A stretch of 64,000 bases of DNA from a virus, in the IMG/VR virus record IMGVR_UViG_3300037235_000042, positions 1-64,000 of that record. One strand, written 5' to 3'. The notes beneath the pieces were generated by a model, which made no database searches, was not told the DNA's origin, and saw nothing but the letters and a program-made list of their open reading frames with translations. Below are positions 25,771 to 33,251 of this stretch, one piece after another. The translations under genes were made by a program, and so were the position numbers. The number at the start of each line of letters is the position of its first letter. Position 1 is the first letter of the stretch.

Positions 25771-25855
25771 AGGCCCGTGGGCTAATAGGGAATGGCAGAC
25801 CTTTCAGGCTCAAAATCTGAGACCCTTGAGAGTTCAAGTCTCTCCGGGCCTACCA
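25771..25855 (+). tRNA. tRNA-Leu(CAA), short variable arm, enlarged D region
   Basis: AGGCCCG/CGGGCCT-A-CCA; TCAGG CT CAA AA TCTGA; GAGAG TTCAAGT CTCTC. Confidence 0.8.
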
Positions 25856-25861
25856 AGTTTA

Positions 25862-25877
25862 GATCTTTGACAATTTA
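25862..25877 (+). promoter_or_regulatory. rrn boxA-like antitermination element
   Basis: GATCTTTGACAATTTA; shares TCTTTGACAATTTA with the - strand copy near 29774-29790. Confidence 0.6.
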
Positions 25878-25880
25878 AAC

Positions 25881-25971
25881 GGAGAGATGGGTGAACGGGA
25901 AAACCGCCTGTTTGCTAAACAGGAGCTACCCGAAAGGGGGCACGCGAGGTCAGCACTCGCTCTCTCCGCCA
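25881..25971 (+). tRNA. tRNA-Ser(GCT)
   Basis: GGAGAGA/TCTCTCC-G-CCA; CCTGT TT GCT AA ACAGG; long variable arm. Confidence 0.88.
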
Positions 25972-25972
25972 C

Positions 25973-26067
25973 GGTGGGATGGACGAGATGCTAAAGTCAC
26001 CAGTCTTGAAAACTGGCGTGTCCGTCGAAAGGCGGCACCGGGGGTTGAATTCCCTCTCCCATCGCCA
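25973..26067 (+). tRNA. tRNA-Ser(TGA)
   Basis: GGTGGGA/TCCCATC-G-CCA; CCAGT CT TGA AA ACTGG; long variable arm. Confidence 0.9.
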
Positions 26068-26095
26068 AGTTTAAAAATGGTATACTTCCGCCATT

Positions 26096-26584
26096 ATGCC
26101 CATGGCTACACTTGAACTGCAGAGAGCCTATATGGCGGAGTGGTACTTGAGGAAGATCAAGCCCCGTCGCGAGAAATGGATAAAGGAAAATGGTCCTTGT
26201 CGTTGCTGTGGGTCATGGAAGAATTTGGAGGTTGATCACAAAGATCCATCCCAAAAAGTTCATCATCGTGTATGGTCATGGTCTGAATTACGAAGACAGG
26301 AAGAATTAAAAAAGTGTCAGGTTCTTTGTCACGACTGTCATCTTAGAAAGACTGTAGTAGATTTACAAGAGATGGATATCAATGCAGATAAACGCAGAAT
26401 CTGTCCTCCCGGAACGGCTTGGTGCTATCGAGGTAAACATTTCGTAGAAGTCCGGTGGTTCAGCAGTGATGCTGCCAAACACGATGGTTTACAGGACGAA
26501 TGTAGAATATGTCGAAGTAAACGAAGAAGTCCAAATGGTAAGCTCGGGCGTGTTGAGATGTTGGGAATCTCAAGCTGGCCGTAA
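26096..26584 (+). CDS. HNH endonuclease inserted in the tRNA array
   Basis: CRCCGS..NLEVDHKDP..K...ELKKCQVLCHDCH. Confidence 0.88.
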   Translation: MPMATLELQRAYMAEWYLRKIKPRREKWIKENGPCRCCGSWKNLEVDHKDPSQKVHHRVWSWSELRRQEELKKCQVLCHDCHLRKTVVDLQEMDINADKRRICPPGTAWCYRGKHFVEVRWFSSDAAKHDGLQDECRICRSKRRSPNGKLGRVEMLGISSWP

Positions 26585-26634
26585 CCCAGTGACGCTTTGT
26601 CGTCTCGGTCGTTCGATTCGATCCACGCCCACCA
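26546..26634 (+). tRNA. tRNA-Tyr(GTA)
   Basis: GGGCGTG/CACGCCC-A-CCA; GCTGG CC GTA AC CCAGT; variable arm; TTCGATT. Confidence 0.85.
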
Positions 26635-26639
26635 AAAAT

Positions 26640-26716
26640 GCCATCCTGCCGCAACTGGAAGACGGACGTGGTTGAGGTCCACGGTTATGTGAGTTCGAGT
26701 CTCACGGATGGCACCA
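26640..26716 (+). tRNA. tRNA-Leu(GAG), short variable arm
   Basis: GCCATCC/GGATGGC-A-CCA; CGTGG TT GAG GT CCACG. Confidence 0.85.
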
Positions 26717-26726
26717 TTTTTTCAGT

Positions 26727-26803
26727 GCCGGAGTATGCAAATAGGAAAAGCAGCTGAGCTTAGACCTCAGTGTTTGGAGGTTCGATTCCTCTCTCCGGTA
26801 CCA
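26727..26803 (+). tRNA. tRNA-Leu(TAG), short variable arm
   Basis: GCCGGAG/CTCCGGT-A-CCA; CTGAG CT TAG AC CTCAG. Confidence 0.85.
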
Positions 26804-26889
26804 ATTTTCTTGAAAATGATCCTAACTGAACATCTTCCTCCTGTTGAAAACCTGCATCATACCTAGGTCCAACAGGAGGCTTTGCTAAA

Positions 26890-27141
26890 ATGTCAACCTT
26901 GAACGCAATTGCTCTACTGGCGTATCGCGTGCCTGACACGTCGACCGGGAATATATTGCACTTCGCTGTCGGGTTCATCGTCATGGTGTGCGTGCTGGCG
27001 ATTGTGATTATTCTGGTCAAGTGGCTGCTCAGTCTTGGCGGGGTCACAATTCCCCAACCCTTGTTGATCTGTTTGGGGATTCTGATTTTTATCGTCTGTA
27101 TGCTGGCGTTGCTTAGCTGGTCGGGGTATTACAGGTTCTGA
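26890..27141 (+). CDS. small two-TM membrane protein
   Basis: AGGAGG RBS; two long hydrophobic helices. Confidence 0.7.
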   Translation: MSTLNAIALLAYRVPDTSTGNILHFAVGFIVMVCVLAIVIILVKWLLSLGGVTIPQPLLICLGILIFIVCMLALLSWSGYYRF

Positions 27142-27167
27142 GAGCTGAAGCTGAGAACTGAGATGAG

Positions 27168-27197
27168 AAATGGCCCTCGATCTATTGAGGACCATTT
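27168..27197. terminator. hairpin between convergent transcription units, possibly bidirectional terminator
   Basis: AAATGG-C-CCTCGA TCTA TTGAGG-A-CCATTT. Confidence 0.5.
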
Positions 27198-27202
27198 CAA
27201 TC

Positions 27203-27278
27203 TGGTAGCGGGAAGAGGATTTGCACCTCTGTCTCGACCTTATGAGGGTCGCGTATCGTCCTACGCTACTATCCCGCA
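27203..27278 (-). tRNA. tRNA-Met(CAT), initiator-like acceptor stem
   Basis: TGCGGGA/TCCCGCT-A-CCA with 1:72 mismatch; CGACC CT CAT AA GGTCG. Confidence 0.8.
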
Positions 27279-27285
27279 ACACTTG

Positions 27286-27588
27286 TTAAGCCGCGTCCAG
27301 CTTCTTGTTCAACTTCGCCAGTTCAGCGTTGATCTCGGCCTTGCGTTCAACCGTAGTCTTCAAGCTGTCCTTGCGAGCCAGCAGTTCCTTCCGACGCGCT
27401 TCCAGCCGGTCGTGGTTCTTGGCCAGGATCTGACGATCCAAGCTCTTGCTCTGGGCCTCGATCCACTCAGGCAGTTCCACATCCTGTTCGATGTACTCAG
27501 TTACGAGTCCACGAGCGAATGCACGTAGAGAGACCATTTCATCAATGGACGCTCTGTTGTGGTCGAAATTCTTTAGCAACTCCAGCAC
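27286..27588 (-). CDS. coiled-coil hypothetical protein co-transcribed with the TROVE gene
   Basis: AAGGAG RBS, GTG start 16 nt after the TROVE stop. Confidence 0.7.
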   Translation of the reverse strand: MLELLKNFDHNRASIDEMVSLRAFARGLVTEYIEQDVELPEWIEAQSKSLDRQILAKNHDRLEARRKELLARKDSLKTTVERKAEINAELAKLNKKLDAA

Positions 27589-27604
27589 GGGTCAGTTCTC
27601 CTTT

Positions 27605-29119
27605 CTAGGCAACTACGGCCTCTTCGACTGTTTCCACCTTGGTTTTGAACACGTCGTTGAGGGTCAGCAAAGGAAATTCCATAATTTCCTCTAGCAACCC
27701 ATATCGTTGAACTCTCATGGTGGAGACGATATTTGGAAGAGAGTAAAAGTCGACTCCCCCTCTTAAATCGAACTCCTGCAAGTCGATCTCCGCTCGTTTC
27801 ATCGACTGGGCTAGGTCGATGTCGCCTATTCCATGCATCGATGGAGCCAGACGATAGAGATAAACAGGAACTTCTTTACCCAGAGTTGTGCAGTACCGCT
27901 TATACGTGTCTGCGAACCTCGGGGCAGTGTTCTCCTGTGCGTCTGACACGATAGCGATCCCGTCGGCCTCGACGCTTCGGTCGATTGCGTATTGAACGCC
28001 ACAACCAATCGAAGTTCCTGCTCCGTCGGCTGTAATCCATTTCGTGTCTGACTTGATCTCGTCATAGCTCTTTCCAGTAACGTCGAACACGCGTGAAGCA
28101 ACAGAGTCGAAGAAGACCAAAGTGATTTTGTTCTTCACCATCTTCCCTAGTGTTCCTGCTACCAGTCGAGCCGTTTCGATAGCGTTCGACATGGAAGGAG
28201 ATTTGTCTGCCAAGATCAGCCAGTTTCCCTCAATCCCTGCAGCACGTTTGAGTTGTTTCTCCTGCAAGTTCTGGAGCTTCCCCTTCAACCCTTCATCCGA
28301 GATCTGTTCCGCTGCTCGGGTAGTCTTCAGCACGTTCTTGGTCGACTTCGACGCCTTTTCAAGCGCTTCCTCGAACACGCCCCGCAGCGCCGGGTTCGTC
28401 TTGACCCCCAGGCGTTCGAGCATTTTCACATTCGTTACCAACTGCGAAGGCGTCATCTTTTTGATCAACGCCAGCACGAGGTCAGGATCGTTGATCTTCT
28501 TCCCCAACGCGCCCTGAGCGGCCATGAACGGGATGTTGTGCTCAAGGATCGCTCCAGCGGCTTCAAGCGCTGACATATTGATCAACTGAGCAACGATCTC
28601 TCTTTTCGAACCTTCCGGGTGGGCCATCTTCCCGTTGTGTTGGTAGAACAGGATATCCCCTACCCGGTCGGAACGCTTGCAGTGTCCCAAAGCGTAGAGA
28701 TTGGCAAAGGTCTTCCGGTCCTGCGTGACCATTGAGTCCCATTTCTGTGGAACGGCTTCGATCTTCTTCAGATAAGCTTCGATCAACCGGCGCAGGGTAC
28801 GCATTCTTCCGGCTGGACGAAGTTCCAGCGCGAACCGGTAGGCTCGCTCCAGTTCCCGAGGGCCGAGCAGCGCGATATGAGCTAGGGAATTGTCGATGAA
28901 TTCGTCTGGGTAGTTCTTGGCCTTCAGCGACACGACTGGTAACGCCACCTTGGCGTCACGGATCTGGCCTTTCAGCCGGTCCCAAGCTACGAGATGTGCA
29001 AAGAATTCAGGTTCCTGTTCAGCCGCCTTTAGGCCGATGGGAACGTATTCCTGAAGCTTCCCGTGAGGAGACTTCGACAATTCACTTAAAATAGTGTTCT
29101 TGGTAAGTCCTGTTTCCAT
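27605..29119 (-). CDS. TROVE-like helical + vWA domain protein (Ro60/Rsr-like RNA-binding protein)
   Basis: 504 aa, helical N-terminus (EQEPEFFAHL..W...GQIRD), C-terminal vWA with MIDAS LILADKSPSM, GTSIG, IVSDAQEN; YrlA-type RNA upstream. Confidence 0.75.
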   Translation of the reverse strand: METGLTKNTILSELSKSPHGKLQEYVPIGLKAAEQEPEFFAHLVAWDRLKGQIRDAKVALPVVSLKAKNYPDEFIDNSLAHIALLGPRELERAYRFALELRPAGRMRTLRRLIEAYLKKIEAVPQKWDSMVTQDRKTFANLYALGHCKRSDRVGDILFYQHNGKMAHPEGSKREIVAQLINMSALEAAGAILEHNIPFMAAQGALGKKINDPDLVLALIKKMTPSQLVTNVKMLERLGVKTNPALRGVFEEALEKASKSTKNVLKTTRAAEQISDEGLKGKLQNLQEKQLKRAAGIEGNWLILADKSPSMSNAIETARLVAGTLGKMVKNKITLVFFDSVASRVFDVTGKSYDEIKSDTKWITADGAGTSIGCGVQYAIDRSVEADGIAIVSDAQENTAPRFADTYKRYCTTLGKEVPVYLYRLAPSMHGIGDIDLAQSMKRAEIDLQEFDLRGGVDFYSLPNIVSTMRVQRYGLLEEIMEFPLLTLNDVFKTKVETVEEAVVA

Positions 29120-29131
29120 TCTTAACCTCTT

Positions 29132-29188
29132 CCCCGAACGTAAGATTGGCCCGACTAATTCTCTTAATCGGGCCTGTGTACGTCGAAA
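29132..29188 (-). promoter_or_regulatory. 5'-leader hairpin of the TROVE gene carrying the Y-module, overlapping the RBS
   Basis: ACGTA-CACA-GGCCCGATT...AGTCGGGCC-AATCT-TACGT, then GGGGAAGAGG and ATG 29119. Confidence 0.65.
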
Positions 29189-29194
29189 CTTTCA

Positions 29195-29267
29195 TCACTG
29201 GTGGGGTATTGAGTGCCCACATCTCCGATAGCTTGCGCTACCCGGCGTAATCCTTATACGACAGTGA
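29195..29267 (-). ncRNA. tRNA-like element with the anticodon arm replaced by a GCAA-capped hairpin, no CCA
   Basis: TCACTG/CAGTGA stem, D-like GTA..TAC, CCGGGTAGC GCAA GCTATCGG, GTGGG..CCCAC T-like arm. Confidence 0.55.
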
Positions 29268-29274
29268 AGATTTA

Positions 29275-29399
29275 CGGCGTTGGATCGTTTCAGCTATTTT
29301 ACGCGCTCTACCGCTGAGCTACGGTTCTTGCGAACCGGTTGGATTCGAACCAACGACCTCGGTCGCCAAGTGACATGTAAGCTGGAACCGTAAACGCCG
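29275..29399 (-). ncRNA. YrlA-type Y RNA (circularly permuted tRNA mimic)
   Basis: Ends pair (CGGCGTT/AACGCCG); order T arm (GTTGG TTCGAAT CCAAC), acceptor stem closed by GCAA (CGGTTC/GAACCG), D arm (GCTC AGCGGTA GAGC). Confidence 0.85.
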
Positions 29400-29404
29400 A
29401 TCTT

Positions 29405-29529
29405 TGGTGGGGAGTGTTGGATTCGAACCAACATGAGCAGTCTTGAAGGACTGTTGCATGAATCCAGTTTCAGTATGCGATGTGACTCGCAGGATCGCTA
29501 CTGGCGCTTTTCCATTTTGCTAACTCCCC
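29405..29529 (-). ncRNA. CCA-ended tRNA/Y-RNA hybrid (Y-module in the anticodon position)
   Basis: GGGGAGT/ACTCCCC-A-CCA, D arm, T arm GTTGG TTCGAAT CCAAC; insert CCAGTAGC GATCC TGCGA..TCGCA TACT GAAACTGG. Confidence 0.7.
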
Positions 29530-29534
29530 AAACT

Positions 29535-29631
29535 TGGTGGAGGGCTCCGGGTATTAGCCGGAGAAGCATGTAATCTCGCAATGTATGCGCTTTAAAGGCG
29601 CAGGATCGAACGTGATTTTGCAGAGCCCCCC
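29535..29631 (-). ncRNA. CCA-ended D-armless tRNA/Y-RNA hybrid
   Basis: GGGGGGC/GCCCTCC-A-CCA, TCCGG CTAATAC CCGGA; insert GATCC TGCGC CTTTAAA GCGCA TACA...TACATG. Confidence 0.65.
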
Positions 29632-29639
29632 GTAAAATC

Positions 29640-29767
29640 CCCATCGCAGGATCGCTTGAGCTAAGGTCTTGCGACCTCAAGGTTGGAATCGAACCAACAA
29701 CTTTCTGATTACTAGTCAGATGCTCTACCAATTGAGCTACGTGTAAGCCCGAGCCGTGTGCGATAGG
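29640..29767 (-). ncRNA. Y-RNA/tRNA-Thr(AGT) hybrid (Y-module replaces the acceptor stem)
   Basis: CCTATCGCA CACG GCTCGGGCT...AGCTCAAGC GATCC TGCGATGGG enclosing D arm, TCTGA CT AGT AA TCAGA, T arm and a GCAA hairpin; no CCA. Confidence 0.75.
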
Positions 29768-29773
29768 AATATT

Positions 29774-29790
29774 AAATTGTCAAAGAACAA
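29774..29790 (-). promoter_or_regulatory. rrn boxA-like antitermination element
   Basis: TTGTTCTTTGACAATTT between the promoter and the first Y-hybrid. Confidence 0.65.
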
Positions 29791-29803
29791 TGATGACTAC
29801 CAA

Positions 29804-29832
29804 TATGTAGCATCCTTGACAGAGGTTGTCAA
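29804..29832 (-). promoter_or_regulatory. sigma70-type promoter of the Y-RNA/TROVE operon within an inverted repeat
   Basis: TTGACA-17-TACATA with TGn extension; CTTGACA gaggt TGTCAAG palindrome. Confidence 0.55.
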
Positions 29833-29850
29833 GATAAAATTACCTAAAAA

Positions 29851-29925
29851 TGGTCGGGGATGCTGATTCTGCCACAGCGACCCCTCGGTCCCAAGCCGAG
29901 TGCTCTGCTTCTGAGCTAATCCCCG
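29851..29925 (-). tRNA. tRNA-Pro(TGG)
   Basis: CGGGGAT/ATCCCCG-A-CCA; CTCGG CT TGG GA CCGAG; atypical T loop. Confidence 0.85.
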
Positions 29926-29930
29926 AAATT

Positions 29931-30005
29931 TGGTGCGGACTGGAGCGCTCGCATCTCCGTCTGAAGGGCTTCAACCTTCCGCTACTCTGTCTCAGCTAAG
30001 TCCGC
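29931..30005 (-). tRNA. tRNA-Phe(GAA)
   Basis: GCGGACT/AGTCCGC-A-CCA; GAAGG TT GAA GC CCTTC. Confidence 0.82.
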
Positions 30006-30011
30006 AAAAGT

Positions 30012-30087
30012 TGGTGGACCCTGTCGGCTTCGCTCCGACCGCCTCCGGTTTGCAGGACCGGCGCTCTCCTGAATGAGCTAAGAGCCC
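30012..30087 (-). tRNA. tRNA-Ala(TGC)
   Basis: GGGCTCT/AGGGTCC-A-CCA with G3:U70; CCGGT CC TGC AA ACCGG. Confidence 0.88.
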
Positions 30088-30095
30088 ACATAAAA

Positions 30096-30170
30096 TGGGG
30101 TGGCTGACGGACTCTGCCTCCGTATGATCGGGGCCACAACCCGACGCCTTTCTAGTTCGGCCACAGCCAC
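30096..30170 (-). tRNA. tRNA-His(GTG)
   Basis: GTGGCTG/CAGCCAC-C-CCA; TCGGG TT GTG GC CCCGA. Confidence 0.86.
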
Positions 30171-30173
30171 AAT

Positions 30174-30247
30174 TGGAGCAGGCGTTCGGTGTTTGACCGA
30201 AGTCTTACGGGTACAAGCCGTAGGCTCTATCGTTGAGCTACACCTGC
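30174..30247 (-). tRNA. tRNA-Thr(TGT)
   Basis: GCAGGTG/CGCCTGC-T-CCA; TACGG CT TGT AC CCGTA. Confidence 0.85.
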
Positions 30248-30254
30248 AAACTTA

Positions 30255-30328
30255 TGGAGCCGAGGCCGGTAGTCGAAACCGGATCGTATGCTTACCAAGC
30301 ATATGCTCTGCCGTTGAGCTACCAAGGC
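30255..30328 (-). tRNA. tRNA-Thr(GGT)
   Basis: GCCTTGG/CCTCGGC-T-CCA; TATGC TT GGT AA GCATA. Confidence 0.86.
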
Positions 30329-30330
30329 TC

Positions 30331-30405
30331 TGGAGCTAGCGTTCCGACGTGCGCGGAATTCTGCTGGTTACGAATCAGCGGCTCTACTATATGAGCTACG
30401 CTAGC
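30331..30405 (-). tRNA. tRNA-Thr(CGT)
   Basis: GCTAGCG/CGCTAGC-T-CCA; GCTGA TT CGT AA CCAGC. Confidence 0.83.
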
Positions 30406-30410
30406 AAAAC

Positions 30411-30487
30411 TGGAGTACTGGGTAGGACTGTAACCTACTAAGAAAGGCTTTGCAGGCCTCCGCTTCGACATCTTCAGCATCCAGTAC
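30411..30487 (-). tRNA. tRNA-Cys(GCA)
   Basis: GTACTGG/CCAGTAC-T-CCA (U73); GAGGC CT GCA AA GCCTT. Confidence 0.85.
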
Positions 30488-30495
30488 ATCAAAAA

Positions 30496-30569
30496 TGGAG
30501 CGAGTGGGGATACTCGAAATCCCATCTCTGGTTTGGAAGACCAGGGCCTTACCTTTAGACGACACTCGC
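30496..30569 (-). tRNA. tRNA-Gly(TCC)
   Basis: GCGAGTG/CACTCGC-T-CCA; CTGGT CT TCC AA ACCAG. Confidence 0.9.
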
Positions 30570-30570
30570 A

Positions 30571-30647
30571 TGGCGAGAACGACAGGATTCGAACCTGCTT
30601 GTCGGTGGTTTGGAATCACCTGCCCTTCCAATCGGGTCATCGTTCTC
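30571..30647 (-). tRNA. tRNA-Trp(CCA)
   Basis: GAGAACG/CGTTCTC-G-CCA; GGTGA TT CCA AA CCACC; TTCGAAT. Confidence 0.87.
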
Positions 30648-30648
30648 A

Positions 30649-30726
30649 TGGCGGGCTAGACGGAACTCGCATCCGCTTTACTCCTCCGTGACGGGGAGGC
30701 GGCTCGACTCCTTCGCCCTCTAGCCC
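30649..30726 (-). tRNA. tRNA-Asp(GTC)
   Basis: GGGCTAG/CTAGCCC-G-CCA; CCTCC CC GTC AC GGAGG. Confidence 0.85.
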
Positions 30727-30727
30727 A

Positions 30728-30803
30728 TGGCAAGCTCCCAGCGATTCGAACGCTGATTGACAGATTCAGAATCTGTAGTCCTAGCCAATTGGACGAGGAG
30801 CCT
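30728..30803 (-). tRNA. tRNA-Gln(CTG)
   Basis: AGGCTCC/GGAGCTT-G-CCA; ACAGA TT CTG AA TCTGT. Confidence 0.9.
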
Positions 30804-30809
30804 AGTTAA

Positions 30810-30882
30810 TGGCACCGGCGCTGGGAATCGAGCCCAGACCGCAAGCTTCAAAGGCTTACTACGGCACCAGCCGCACGCCGGA
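30810..30882 (-). tRNA. tRNA-Gln(TTG)
   Basis: TCCGGCG/CGCCGGT-G-CCA; TAAGC CT TTG AA GCTTG. Confidence 0.82.
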
Positions 30883-31065
30883 TCAAATTTTCAATGAAAT
30901 CGCCCTTATACACCGGGCGCAAACCACCGCCGACTGATCGACGTCTTTTTCCTTCCGCATCCGGTCGACCCGAGCTTCCCGGACCAGCTGACGATGATCA
31001 CCACCGCGTTCGCAGTAATTGATATCGCCGGGCTCGATGGTCGTGTTGAACAGTTTGTGCTTCAT
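30883..31065 (-). CDS. small Cys/His protein inside the tRNA array
   Basis: MKHKLF...CERGGDH...CARC fills the gap between tRNA-Glu and tRNA-Gln. Confidence 0.5.
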   Translation of the reverse strand: MKHKLFNTTIEPGDINYCERGGDHRQLVREARVDRMRKEKDVDQSAVVCARCIRAISLKI

Positions 31066-31075
31066 TCTTGATCTC

Positions 31076-31152
31076 TGGTGCCGCATGTCGGAGTCCCACC
31101 GACTTTATCCTCCTTGAAAGAGAGGCCGCTCCAGTCCTTTGCGCTATGCGGC
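31076..31152 (-). tRNA. tRNA-Glu(TTC)
   Basis: GCCGCAT/ATGCGGC-A-CCA; CCTCT CT TTC AA GGAGG. Confidence 0.82.
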
Positions 31153-31154
31153 AA

Positions 31155-31229
31155 TGGTAGCGGATGACGGTTACGATCCGTCTTTTTTCGGATGAGAACC
31201 GAATGGCCTAGCCAGTAGCCGAATCCGCC
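31155..31229 (-). tRNA. tRNA-Glu(CTC)
   Basis: GGCGGAT/ATCCGCT-A-CCA; TTCGG TT CTC AT CCGAA. Confidence 0.82.
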
Positions 31230-31247
31230 GTTTAACTATCGAACTCT

Positions 31248-31595
31248 TTATCGAACCACCAAAAACGGAATCGTCACCAGCTGTTTCTCCTTGGTGACCA
31301 TGTCCGTCGCCGAGAACACCAGATTAACCTGCTTCCCGGCTGAGGTTGGCCCGGTCGGCGTCCCCGTTACCACAGCAGATCGAGGATCCTCGGCGACCAA
31401 GGCTAGTCCGGCAGGCATCGGGTCGCTGGTTGAATCCAGATCCCAGCAGATCTGATGCAGGGGCTTATCCAAGGTGTGCAGCCCCGTGTACAAGTAAGCG
31501 GTGAATGGACGGTTGATCCTGGAGATCAGCGCCGGAAAGGGTTGGGCTAATCCTGGTATCTCCTGATCGTTCAAATCCGTAGCGATGTCGGGCAT
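31248..31595 (-). CDS. putative Ig (He_PIG-like) domain protein
   Basis: W.L....MPAGLAL......VVTGTPT...F.ATD; AAGGA RBS. Confidence 0.65.
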   Translation of the reverse strand: MPDIATDLNDQEIPGLAQPFPALISRINRPFTAYLYTGLHTLDKPLHQICWDLDSTSDPMPAGLALVAEDPRSAVVTGTPTGPTSAGKQVNLVFSATDMVTKEKQLVTIPFLVVR

Positions 31596-31631
31596 AGAAT
31601 TCCTTTCAAGTTGGATTAAGTAGATCAGATT

Positions 31632-31664
31632 AAAAAAGCCTTCTAGTTTTTAAGTAGAAGGCTT
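31632..31664 (-). terminator. intrinsic terminator (attenuator C)
   Basis: AAGCCTTCTA-9 nt-TAGAAGGCTTTTTT. Confidence 0.85.
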
Positions 31665-31692
31665 GCCGTTTAAACCCGTCAAATCCTTCCAA

Positions 31693-31794
31693 CTACCCAC
31701 AACCTTCGCCCTGAAACCACGCTTGGTGTAGTCCAAACGGAGTCTTGGTCACAGTCGGGGTCGTAGGTTGATCGGAATGGATTGGTGTTCTCAT
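31693..31794 (-). CDS. leader peptide C (33 aa) before the 15-tRNA array
   Basis: MRTPIHSDQPTTPTVTKTPFGLHQAWFQGEGCG*; lies between a promoter and a terminator; contains all 11 amino acids of the downstream array. Confidence 0.8.
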   Translation of the reverse strand: MRTPIHSDQPTTPTVTKTPFGLHQAWFQGEGCG

Positions 31795-31817
31795 GTTCTG
31801 GTAACTCAACAGGAAGA

Positions 31818-31846
31818 ACTCTACTATTCGGACGAAAACTTGTCAA
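31818..31846 (-). promoter_or_regulatory. sigma70-type promoter for leader C/array C
   Basis: TTGACA-17-TAGAGT. Confidence 0.75.
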
Positions 31847-31940
31847 CAGGAAAATTAAGAGAATTCCTTAACCGGGTAAGGTATCGACGGTATTGTTCCT
31901 TCTTCCGGTTCCACGCAAGCTGATAAGCGGAGGAATTCTT

Positions 31941-32120
31941 ATGCCCTGTTCACAGCAGGATCGCTTCTCAGCATCGGCGGATAAACTTCAAGGGGAACTG
32001 GAATCGCTGGATAACCGGTTGCAACAGTTGCAGAATATGGAAGAGATATTGGAGAAGGTGGAAGGATCACCGATACTGACGAGGACGGAGAGAAGGATGG
32101 AGTTTAACCGAGCGGCTTAG
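31941..32120 (+). CDS. small coiled-coil protein
   Basis: GGAGG RBS before ATG 31941. Confidence 0.55.
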   Translation: MPCSQQDRFSASADKLQGELESLDNRLQQLQNMEEILEKVEGSPILTRTERRMEFNRAA

Positions 32121-32125
32121 AAGAC

Positions 32126-32202
32126 TGGTAGGCCAGGTCGGACTCGAACCGACAACCTCTAGATTCGGAATCTAGCGCGATTTCCTTTTTCGCTTCTGGC
32201 CT
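32126..32202 (-). tRNA. tRNA-Arg(CCG)
   Basis: AGGCCAG/CTGGCCT-A-CCA; CTAGA TT CCG AA TCTAG. Confidence 0.88.
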
Positions 32203-32204
32203 AA

Positions 32205-32280
32205 TGGTGACAGCGTCGAGGCTCGAACTCGAAATTGCTTTTTAGGAGAAAGCTGTGATTTCCGTTTTCACCACGCCGTC
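32205..32280 (-). tRNA. tRNA-Arg(CCT)
   Basis: GACGGCG/CGCTGTC-A-CCA; GCTTT CT CCT AA AAAGC. Confidence 0.88.
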
Positions 32281-32286
32281 GAAATA

Positions 32287-32364
32287 TGGTGCGGGATAGA
32301 GGACTCGAACCTCTTGCCTCGGGTTTCGTAGACCCGCGCTCTGATCCTGATGAGCTAATCCCGC
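32287..32364 (-). tRNA. tRNA-Arg(ACG)
   Basis: GCGGGAT/ATCCCGC-A-CCA; CGGGT CT ACG AA ACCCG. Confidence 0.92.
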
Positions 32365-32369
32365 AAACT

Positions 32370-32445
32370 TGGGGGCTGCTGGCCGACTCGAACGGCCATT
32401 CGAACTTTAGAAGAGTTCGTCCTAATCCTGTTGGATGAAGCAGCC
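32370..32445 (-). tRNA. tRNA-Arg(TCT)
   Basis: GGCTGCT/AGCAGCC-C-CCA; GAACT CT TCT AA AGTTC. Confidence 0.86.
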
Positions 32446-32465
32446 ATAGTTAACCTCTGTAAAAG

Positions 32466-32541
32466 TGGTGGAGGTCATGGGATTCGAACCCACATCGGCT
32501 CGCTTAAAAGGCGAGGGTCTTCACCATTAGACGAAACCTCC
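32466..32541 (-). tRNA. tRNA-Lys(TTT)
   Basis: GGAGGTT/GACCTCC-A-CCA; CTCGC CT TTT AA GCGAG. Confidence 0.9.
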
Positions 32542-32549
32542 AAAACTCT

Positions 32550-32628
32550 TGGTGGGTGCGGCTGGGGTCGAACCAGCATGTTCCTGATTAAGAGTCAGGA
32601 GCGCCTTCCATCACTCCGCCACGCACCC
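32550..32628 (-). tRNA. tRNA-Lys(CTT)
   Basis: GGGTGCG/CGCACCC-A-CCA; CCTGA CT CTT AA TCAGG. Confidence 0.9.
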
Positions 32629-32629
32629 A

Positions 32630-32703
32630 TGGTACTCGCAGGTTGAGTCGAACAACCATCTCGTGCTCATCAGACACGGGCCTTACCGTTAGACGATGCG
32701 AGT
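32630..32703 (-). tRNA. tRNA-Ile(GAT)
   Basis: ACTCGCA/TGCGAGT-A-CCA; CGTGT CT GAT GA GCACG. Confidence 0.86.
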
Positions 32704-32775
32704 GAAACTTGCGGGCCGCCGTTACCCCTGACAGGACTTCAACCACTGTCAGGATTGTTGAACTTTGGCCCAGCT

Positions 32776-32850
32776 TGGTGCGCGGTGAGCGATTCGAACG
32801 CCCGACAAGTAGTTCGTAAAACTACGGCTCTACCCCTGAGCTAACCGCGC
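32776..32850 (-). tRNA. tRNA-Val(TAC)
   Basis: GCGCGGT/ACCGCGC-A-CCA; GTAGT TT TAC GA ACTAC. Confidence 0.9.
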
Positions 32851-32856
32851 AAACTT

Positions 32857-32935
32857 TGGTCCGTCCTCTTGGATTTGAACCAAGGCCCTTCGCCTTATGA
32901 GGGCGCTGCTCTAGGCCGGGCTGAGCTAAGGACGG
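32857..32935 (-). tRNA. tRNA-Met/Ile2(CAT), elongator type
   Basis: CCGTCCT/AGGACGG-A-CCA; GCGCC CT CAT AA GGCGA. Confidence 0.86.
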
Positions 32936-32943
32936 ACGGGAGG

Positions 32944-33126
32944 TTATTGCACCCCCAGTTTATACGACGCCTTCTTGTTCTTCCGTTGACGTTTTTTACC
33001 TTTTTTAAACTTGGCCTTCGCGTAACGGACTTGTGGCGGATATTTTTTGAACACTCGTTCACGATGCGCCTTGCGTTCCGCCGCCTTGCGGAGCTTGGTC
33101 GCTAGTTTCTGTCCTGTTGTACGCAT
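32944..33126 (-). CDS. small Lys/Arg-rich protein inside tRNA array B
   Basis: GAGGTG RBS; about 24 of 60 residues are K/R. Confidence 0.55.
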   Translation of the reverse strand: MRTTGQKLATKLRKAAERKAHRERVFKKYPPQVRYAKAKFKKGKKRQRKNKKASYKLGVQ

Positions 33127-33174
33127 TGACGTTCACCTCTTAGTGAATCGTCATGGCGGACCTCCTTTGGAATT

Positions 33175-33251
33175 TGGCGACACCGGGAGGACTCCAACCT
33201 CCACCCTTCCGCTTAACAGGCGGCTGCTCGGCGCATCTCAGCTTCGGTGCC
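33175..33251 (-). tRNA. tRNA-Asn(GTT)
   Basis: GGCACCG/CGGTGTC-G-CCA; GCCGC CT GTT AA GCGGA. Confidence 0.85.

What the first reader, a model, noticed from the sequence alone, without database searches (positions are those of the whole stretch)
29119..29188. Fifth module copy overlaps the TROVE gene's RBS: possible autogenous translational control
ACGTA-CACA-[9 bp GGCCCGATT/AGTCGGGCC]-AATCT-TACGT extends by TTTCG/CGGGG pairing into the GGGGAAGAGG Shine-Dalgarno region. A slightly degenerate copy (AATCT versus GATCC) fits feedback in which free protein represses its own mRNA once the Y RNAs are saturated, as ribosomal proteins do.
Basis: inference. Interest (0 to 1): 0.75.

Follow-up and report, generated by a model that had tools for sequence, protein, structure and literature searches.

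The report
Minimal Y-RNA hairpin before phage Ro gene
A 48-base RNA hairpin just before a phage gene for a Ro60-like RNA-binding protein is a stripped-down copy of the protein-docking stem of the neighbouring Y RNAs; it could let spare protein shut off its own synthesis, but only its position supports that idea.

Summary
Observation confirmed. On the minus strand at 29137-29184 there is a very stable hairpin (-23 kcal/mol, z -6.8). It has a 6-bp outer helix, a CACA/AATCT internal loop and an 11-bp inner helix, and it ends 17 nt before the ATG of a 504-aa gene. That gene folds like Ro60 (TROVE ring plus vWA), although Pfam TROVE misses it. The hairpin has the same layout as the stem shared by four upstream Y-like RNAs, all with GATCC loops.

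The two closest relatives with DNA (69% and 60% protein identity) carry a module with the same AATCT loop but different stems, 19-20 nt before their start codons. It is therefore a conserved positional orthologue. The window copy is the shortest found and the only one lacking the apical CTTACAYG motif.

"Overlaps the RBS" is overstated. The Shine-Dalgarno core is free, and the TTTCG/CGGGG extension is weak and not conserved.

Autogenous control is physically plausible but unsupported beyond position. About 20-40% of 73-74 orthologous loci have a module next to the RBS. In other loci an ordinary tRNA or a coding gene sits equally close, so tight packing is enough to explain the position.

Best reading: a handle-only, YrlB-like last member of the Y-RNA array, lying in the Ro leader.

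The parts
29137..29184 (-). Core hairpin M5: outer helix GACGTA/TACGTT, internal loop CACA/AATCT, 11-bp inner helix, GAGAA loop. This is a handle-only copy of the Y-RNA stem.
   Evidence: z -6.84; background 0.3 per 64 kb.
29132..29136 (-). CGGGG: the 3' arm of the optional 5-bp extension that pairs with TTTCG (29184-29188). It has three G-U pairs and is not conserved.
   Evidence: In the MFE. The corresponding flanks in L077 and L070 cannot pair.
29126..29131 (-). Shine-Dalgarno core AAGAGG, 6 nt before the ATG. It is left unpaired by the hairpin.
   Evidence: Sequence; fold.
27605..29119 (-). 504-aa Ro60-like gene (helical-repeat ring plus vWA).
   Evidence: AlphaFold2 model pLDDT 82. Foldseek matches phage phiLo Ro60 (9kop, 9l5y), Xenopus Ro60 (1yvp) and Deinococcus Rsr (2nvo) over the full length, E 2.5e-11 to 1e-7, TM about 0.6. 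Pfam gives only vWA.
29193..29269 (-). Cloverleaf-like spacer RNA between the YrlA-type RNA and M5.
   Evidence: Four-way fold, z -1.9; weak skipping-rope hit, E 0.05. Absent in L077.
29275..29399 (-). M4: YrlA-type Y RNA with the module as its closing stem (TTAC / GATCC).
   Evidence: Rfam RF02553 42.5 bits, E 6.7e-8, below the gathering score of 69; scanner.
29405..29529 (-). M3: CCA-ended tRNA-like RNA with a permuted module in the anticodon-arm position.
   Evidence: Rfam tRNA 41.8 bits with a 41-nt insertion; fold.
29535..29631 (-). M2: CCA-ended hybrid RNA with a permuted module.
   Evidence: Fold z -3.1; GATCC motif.
29637..29770 (-). M1: tRNA body (Rfam model positions 7-64) whose acceptor stem is replaced by the module.
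   Evidence: Rfam tRNA 54.3 bits; scanner outer 12 / inner 8, CACG / GATCC.

Best explanation
M5 is the last and most reduced member of the phage's Y-RNA array. It keeps only the docking stem that all the array's RNAs share: outer helix, YAC[N]/RATCY internal loop, inner helix. It has lost the apical CTTACAYG motif and any tRNA-like or effector part.

It is transcribed on the same strand as the other Y-like RNAs and the Ro60-like gene, probably in one precursor. It therefore lies in the gene's leader, 4-5 nt before the SD core. It is most like the hairpin-type second Y RNAs of bacteria, such as M. smegmatis YrlB, which lies between YrlA and rsr and is cut from the same precursor.

Its closeness to the RBS is best explained by the tight packing of this 98-kb phage genome.

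Shown: the structure; the module layout; positional orthology with covarying stems and a conserved AATCT loop; the Ro60 fold of the protein.

Inferred: that the Ro-like protein binds it; that it is co-transcribed; whether it is released as a small RNA or stays on the mRNA.
For: - Structure and rarity.
- Same layout as M1-M4. Its 5' strand (CGUA-CACA-GG) fits the window consensus CG[CU]A-YAC[A]-KG. In the Rfam YrlA alignment of M4 this region is the closing stem that holds the GNCGAA motif (PMC4201824).
- L077 (69% identity) and L070 (60%) have a module with the identical AATCT loop 19-20 nt before the start. Their outer and inner helices differ in sequence but still pair. Their other modules carry GATCY.
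- Free-standing mini modules of 59-80 nt occur at -130 to -1680 in ten relatives, so hairpin-type modules are genes in their own right.
- Modules are strand-specific and confined to the Ro locus.
- tRNAs abut the Ro RBS at 17, 27 and 31 nt in L055, L053 and L060.
- Literature: YrlB lies between YrlA and rsr and is processed from a single precursor. Each studied species has a long-hairpin Y RNA (PMC4201824). Phage phiLo has Yrl1 and Yrl2 upstream of Ro60 (PMC12135203).
Against: - M5 is the only one of 64 upstream or proximal scanner hits in its position class to lack the apical TACAYG-like motif. 58 of 64 have it, and 0 of 14 background hits do. It may therefore not behave like the other Y RNAs.
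- A covariance model built from 11 relatives' mini modules does not detect it. The same model also misses M1-M4, so the test had no power.
- Rfam YrlA and Y_RNA do not match it.
- A handle without an effector part has no obvious job as a free RNA, which favours a role in cis.
- There is no evidence on transcripts, processing or binding.
Confidence: 0.45

Rival explanations
1. Autogenous translational operator. Once the canonical GATCC Y RNAs are saturated, free Ro-like protein binds the weaker AATCT handle in its own leader. The 55-kDa ring then sterically keeps the 30S subunit off the SD, which lies 4-5 nt away. This would work like ThrRS on the thrS operator or ribosomal proteins on their leaders.
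For: - A copy of the protein's presumed docking stem ends 17 nt before the ATG.
- It is handle-only, which suits a cis role better than a trans role.
- The A-for-G loop variant is specific to the RBS-proximal copy in all three loci of the clade, against eight GATCY copies elsewhere.
- A module next to the RBS recurs in 15 of 74 loci by strict scan, against 4 of 540 control positions, and in about 27-30 of 73 by eye.
- Its 5' strand is canonical, and this is the strand Ro60 reads in known complexes (PMC4201824).
- Operators just upstream of the SD are established for thrS (general knowledge).
Against: - The evidence is position only.
- The SD core is not paired and the extension is not conserved.
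- Most orthologous loci lack a proximal module.
- In distant relatives the proximal module is a full, canonical Y RNA, not a weakened one.
- tRNAs and coding genes abut the RBS equally closely.
- No paper in the searched library reports Ro60 autoregulation.
Confidence: 0.3
2. A processing or stability hairpin that works without Ro. The irregular ~22-bp helix with an asymmetric internal loop would be cut by RNase III or a similar enzyme. Alternatively it stays as a 5'-terminal stem-loop that protects the Ro mRNA after the upstream tRNA-like RNAs are cut away.
For: - A very stable hairpin at the junction between an RNA array and an mRNA.
- It is preceded by a cloverleaf-like element that tRNA-processing enzymes could cut.
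- The geometry recalls T7 RNase III sites (from memory, not tested).
- The apical motif present in nearly every other upstream or proximal module (58 of 64) is missing.
Against: - The internal-loop layout and the conserved AATCT loop across 30-40% protein divergence point to a sequence-specific partner, not just a helix.
- The module family occurs only beside the Ro-like gene.
Confidence: 0.15
3. A decaying remnant of a former Y RNA, left after an internal deletion, with no present function.
For: - It is the shortest of all modules found and lacks the interior that its orthologues in L077 and L070 retain.
Against: - All 17 base pairs are intact and the loops fit the consensus.
- The stems of the orthologues have turned over completely while pairing was kept.
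Confidence: 0.1

Closest known systems
M. smegmatis yrlA-yrlB-rsr locus and the hairpin-type bacterial Y RNAs (YrlB, D. radiodurans Yrn2; Chen et al. 2014, PMC4201824)
   Same: A second, smaller RNA lies between a tRNA-like YrlA and the Ro gene on the same strand and is cut from one precursor. [quoted passage not shown]
   Different: M5 is only 48 nt. Its loop is purine-rich, it has no T-arm, and the GNCGAA motif is only approximated (GACGUAC). Binding and accumulation are untested. The protein is too divergent for Pfam TROVE.
Thermus phage phiLo Ro60 with Yrl1 and Yrl2 (PMC12135203; PDB 9kop, 9l5y)
   Same: A phage Ro60 homologue with Y-like RNAs directly upstream. It is the best structural match to the window's protein.
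   Different: Sequence identity is about 16%. The phiLo RNAs are described as stem-bulge-stem with a CGAA motif. No leader operator is reported there.
Rfam YrlA (RF02553)
   Same: M4, two elements upstream of M5 (the cloverleaf-like spacer lies between them), matches it at 42.5 bits. M5 has the layout of the YrlA closing stem.
   Different: M5 itself has no match. It lacks the T, D and acceptor-like arms that define the family.
Autogenous translational operators that mimic the protein's RNA ligand (E. coli thrS operator; ribosomal-protein leaders S8, L1, S15, L20; phage T4 gp32 and RegA; MS2 coat-replicase hairpin)
   Same: A copy of the protein's cognate RNA site placed at the RBS of its own gene. 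In thrS the mimic also sits just upstream of the SD.
   Different: For those systems binding and repression are demonstrated. Here neither is. The site is not conserved in most orthologous loci.

Membership tests
Ro60/TROVE protein (for the downstream gene) | Sequence match to the TROVE domain (Pfam PF05731) | tested here: not met
   Pfam finds only VWA_2 at 23 bits, with no TROVE even at E 10. Among 39 homologues, 3 reach vWA_Ro60 at E 2.8e-4 or weaker and none reaches TROVE. PDB sequence and profile searches are empty.
Ro60/TROVE protein (for the downstream gene) | Helical-repeat ring followed by a vWA domain, matching solved Ro60 structures over the full length | tested here: met
   Model pLDDT 82. 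The top 12 Foldseek hits are all Ro60, Rsr or TROVE, with E 2.5e-11 to 5e-7, TM 0.6 and about 500-550 aligned columns.
YrlA (Rfam RF02553) | Closing stem plus T-arm, acceptor-like stem and D-arm; score at or above the gathering threshold | tested here: not met
   No hit on 29119-29190 at E up to 10. A 48-nt hairpin has no room for the arms.
Y RNA in the functional sense | Encoded close to the Ro gene and on the same strand | tested here: met
   It ends 17 nt upstream, on the same strand.
Y RNA in the functional sense | Stem formed by the 5' and 3' ends with an internal loop or bulge that carries the Ro-binding motif (GNCGAA N0-1 G in bacteria) | tested here: inconclusive
   The stem and internal loop are present. 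The 5' strand reads GACGUACACAG, which only approximates the motif. The whole phage family reads GNCG[AG]UACUG instead.
Y RNA in the functional sense | Bound by Ro and accumulating as a discrete small RNA | not testable with these tools
   Needs immunoprecipitation, Northern blotting or RNA-seq.
Shared stem module of this phage Ro-like family | Outer helix, YAC[N] 5' loop, inner helix of at least 7 bp, RAYYN 3' loop | tested here: met
   Outer 6 bp, CACA, inner 11 bp, AATCT. It has the joint highest score of all proximal modules.
Shared stem module of this phage Ro-like family | Apical CTTACAYG-type motif just after the inner 5' strand | tested here: not met
   Present in 58 of 64 upstream or proximal modules and absent in M5. 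Present in the orthologues L077 and L070.
Shared stem module of this phage Ro-like family | Detected by a covariance model built from relatives | tested here: inconclusive
   Model R1 gives no significant hit. It also misses M1-M4, so it has no power for this clade's GATCC variant.
Autogenous translational operator | Mimic of the protein's RNA ligand placed so that binding excludes the ribosome | tested here: inconclusive
   The geometry is compatible: it ends 4-5 nt before the SD core. The hairpin does not pair with the SD core or the AUG.
Autogenous translational operator | Conserved at the RBS of orthologues | tested here: inconclusive
   Present in the closest clade. Found in 15 of 74 distinct loci by strict scan and about 27-30 of 73 by eye; absent in the rest.
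Autogenous translational operator | Protein binds the leader and represses translation | not testable with these tools
   Needs EMSA, toeprinting and reporter fusions.
Intrinsic terminator | GC-rich hairpin followed by a U tract | tested here: not met
   The 3' flank is UCGGGGAAGAGG. The scan finds no terminator here.

The most novel reading that the evidence does not exclude
A Ro60-family protein controls its own translation through a handle-only Y-RNA mimic in its mRNA leader. The A-for-G loop variant would make it a lower-affinity site that fills only after the real Y RNAs are saturated. This would be the first autogenous feedback loop described for any Ro/Y RNP, and it would set the protein-to-RNA ratio during phage infection.
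Probability: 0.27. Interest if true: 0.7.

Novelty: new variant of a known kind. Interest (0 to 1): 0.45.

Why it matters
Ro60/Y-RNA particles are known from animals, bacteria and a few phages. How the cell or phage matches the amount of protein to the amount of RNA is not known, and I found no report of Ro60 feedback on its own mRNA.

This 48-nt hairpin is a natural minimal version of the docking stem in a very divergent phage Ro-like family. It is a convenient substrate for defining what the protein recognises: the 5' strand, the internal loop and the G/A loop variant. It also allows a direct test of whether a Y-RNA handle at the RBS represses translation.

If it does not, it remains a useful example of how far a Y RNA can shrink. 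It also shows that closeness to an RBS in a compact phage genome is not evidence of control.

Tried and rejected
- Pfam, NCBIfam and PDB sequence searches for TROVE found nothing beyond vWA. PHROGs gave only a weak hit to phrog_850, "RNA-binding protein".
- Rfam on the hairpin: no family at E up to 10.
- Covariance model R1 from 11 mini modules of relatives gave no significant hit anywhere in the window, with filters on or off. I rejected this as a membership test because it also misses the four accepted copies.
- Intrinsic terminator or sigma-70 promoter at the hairpin: none.
- Other module copies in the window as a possible regulon: the only other scanner hits are weak and lie inside long ORFs.
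- SD sequestration by RNA structure: not supported and not conserved.
- Closer relatives:
  - A single-protein scan of metagenome contigs found nothing.
  - The genome-contig scan found nothing.
  - A DNA pattern shared by L077 and L070 has no match in viral contigs.
- Two reviews on bacterial Y RNAs are not held in the library.

Full report
**Setting.** The window is part of a complete 98,271-bp virus record with direct terminal repeats. It has about 52% G+C and at least 23 tRNA genes around the finding. The finding lies on the minus strand, directly upstream of ORF 27605-29119 (504 aa).

**The gene.**
- Pfam finds only a sub-threshold vWA domain and no TROVE domain, even at E 10.
- NCBIfam and PDB sequence searches give nothing. 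PHROGs gives a weak hit to an "RNA-binding protein" family.
- The family is large: 826 relatives by word search and 588 cluster representatives by HMMER. Many sit on contigs of about 100 kb.
- An AlphaFold2 model built on 39 homologues (pLDDT 82) matches Ro60 structures over its full length. The matches are Thermus phage phiLo Ro60/TROVE (9kop, 9l5y), Xenopus Ro60 (1yvp, 1yvr, 2i91), human Ro60 and Deinococcus Rsr (2nvo), with E 2.5e-11 to 5e-7 and TM about 0.6.
- Three of the 39 homologues touch Pfam vWA_Ro60.
- "TROVE gene" is therefore right at the level of fold, not of sequence family.
- The ATG at 29119 is the true start. The N-terminus ME.G[LI]TKN.I is conserved in more than 60 related loci.

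**The observation.**
- The 48-mer 29137-29184 folds as a 6-bp outer helix, a CACA/AATCT internal loop, an 11-bp inner helix and a GAGAA loop. Its energy is -23.0 kcal/mol, z -6.84.
- A scanner for this layout finds exactly the three standard-topology copies upstream of the gene.
- Hits of M5's grade arise 0.3 times per 64-kb strand in simulated sequence. The few weak hits elsewhere lie inside long ORFs.
- The four other copies all carry GATCC followed by the outer 3' strand. There are four GATCCWNCG within 375 nt of one strand, against 5.8 expected for the whole window on both strands.
- Two of those copies are circularly permuted, with the outer helix closed by a loop.
- M4 is a YrlA-type RNA: Rfam RF02553 at 42.5 bits, E 6.7e-8, below the gathering score. 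In that alignment the module is the closing stem.
- Two details of the finding are overstated. The core hairpin ends 4-5 nt before the SD core (AGAGG, 6 nt from the ATG), so it does not overlap it. The TTTCG/CGGGG extension has three G-U pairs and a bulge and reaches only the G-run.

**Relatives.** I fetched 65 viral and 26 metagenomic loci that encode relatives of the protein.
- Modules are found strand-specifically upstream of the gene in many of them. The family consensus is TACT/GACTT loops plus a strongly conserved CTTACAYG directly after the inner 5' strand.
- The closest relatives with DNA are L077 (69% identity) and L070/L066 (60%).
- Both have a module whose 3' loop is the same AATCT as in M5, ending 19-20 nt before the start codon. 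Their other modules carry GATCT or GATCC.
- The outer helices differ from the window's but still pair: GCCGTC/GACGGC against ACGTA/TACGT. The inner helices differ too.
- M5 therefore has positional orthologues with covarying stems and a conserved, copy-specific loop.
- Those orthologues keep TACATG and an interior of 20-60 nt. M5 has lost both.
- Of 64 upstream or proximal scanner hits in all loci, 58 carry the apical motif. None of the 14 background hits inside or after the gene does. M5 is the only RBS-proximal hit without it and the shortest module of all.

**Does the position mean control?**
- A module ending 8-50 nt before the start codon is detected in 15 of 74 distinct loci, against 4 of 540 control positions.
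- By eye the figure is about 27-30 of 73.
- In the remaining loci an HNH-like coding gene abuts the RBS, or, in three loci, an ordinary tRNA at 17, 27 and 31 nt. That is the same range as the modules. Leaders of this gene are short whatever precedes it.
- In distant relatives the proximal module is often a full YrlA-like RNA with canonical loops, not a weakened copy.
- Mini hairpin modules of 59-80 nt also occur hundreds of bases from any RBS.
- Folding the leaders shows no conserved pairing with the SD or the AUG.
- Adjacency is thus what compact packing predicts, and it adds little support for feedback.

**What favours a cis role.**
- M5 retains just the part that, by analogy, the protein reads. 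Its 5' strand, CGUA-CACA-GG, fits the window's consensus. Ro60 mainly contacts the 5' strand of the stem in the known complexes (Chen et al. 2014, PMC4201824).
- A handle without any effector part has no obvious function as a free RNA.
- The G-to-A loop variant is restricted to the RBS-proximal copy in all three loci of the clade.
- If the protein binds and the hairpin stays on the mRNA, competition with the 30S subunit 4-5 nt away is physically likely, as at the thrS operator (general knowledge).

**Known comparisons.**
- In M. smegmatis a second Rsr-bound RNA, YrlB, lies between YrlA and rsr, and both are processed from one precursor.
- Every studied bacterium has a hairpin-type Y RNA with a small loop.
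- Phage phiLo has two Y-like RNAs upstream of its Ro60 (PMC12135203).
- I found no report of Ro60 autoregulation.
- Earlier notes of this scan describe similar leader hairpins beside Ro60-like genes in other genomes. These are unchecked leads, not evidence.

**Verdict.** M5 is a genuine, selected, handle-only derivative of the last Y RNA of the array, lying in the leader of the Ro60-like gene. My odds are:

| Reading | Odds |
|---|---|
| YrlB-like minimal Y RNA whose position reflects packing | about 45% |
| Autogenous operator | about 30% |
| Ro-independent processing or stability hairpin | about 15% |
| Remnant | about 10% |

The first two readings are not exclusive. Transcript mapping, binding assays and a reporter fusion would settle it.

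**Limits.** The covariance model had no power for this clade.

Noticed in passing
window 29193-29269 (-): A cloverleaf-like four-way junction lies between the YrlA-type RNA and M5: a 6-bp closing stem, three hairpins, one of them with a GCAA tetraloop. The fold z is only -1.9, and there is a weak Rfam skipping-rope hit (E 0.05). It is absent from the closest relative L077, where YrlA is followed after 9 nt by the mini module.
   Followed up: partly
L077:1725-2252, L070:735-1289 and about 20 other loci: In about a quarter of related loci an HNH-like coding gene lies directly upstream of the Ro-like gene. It has cysteine pairs, KDKG..DP..WC, and a C-terminus ..DY.FF..YL..RKLP. In some loci it sits between members of the Y-RNA array, which suggests a mobile insertion that splits the array.
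   Followed up: no
L001-L091, upstream of the Ro-like gene: The family-wide module consensus is outer helix, TACT, inner helix ending GCTTACAYG, then CAAnAAAGC, inner 3' strand, GACTT, outer helix. Rfam does not recognise it, apart from sub-threshold YrlA hits on the tRNA-like members. The window's clade uses GATCC instead of GACTT.
   Followed up: partly
window 29854-29925 (-): Rfam calls a tRNA here (44 bits, anticodon-loop sequence CUUGGGA, irregular T arm) that ARAGORN does not list. It lies just upstream of the Y-RNA array.
   Followed up: no
L017, L018, L014, L022, L002: about -38 to -20 from the start codon: Loci in which a coding gene abuts the Ro-like gene still carry AACTTTTC[GA][CT]A between the stop codon and the SD. 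This resembles the 3' loop plus outer 3' strand (GACTT-TCCGCA) of a module. It may be a remnant of a split module or a conserved leader motif.
   Followed up: no
window 25771-33251: A complete 98-kb phage genome with direct terminal repeats carries tRNA arrays on both strands (23 by ARAGORN in 9 kb) around the Ro/Y-RNA locus.
   Followed up: no
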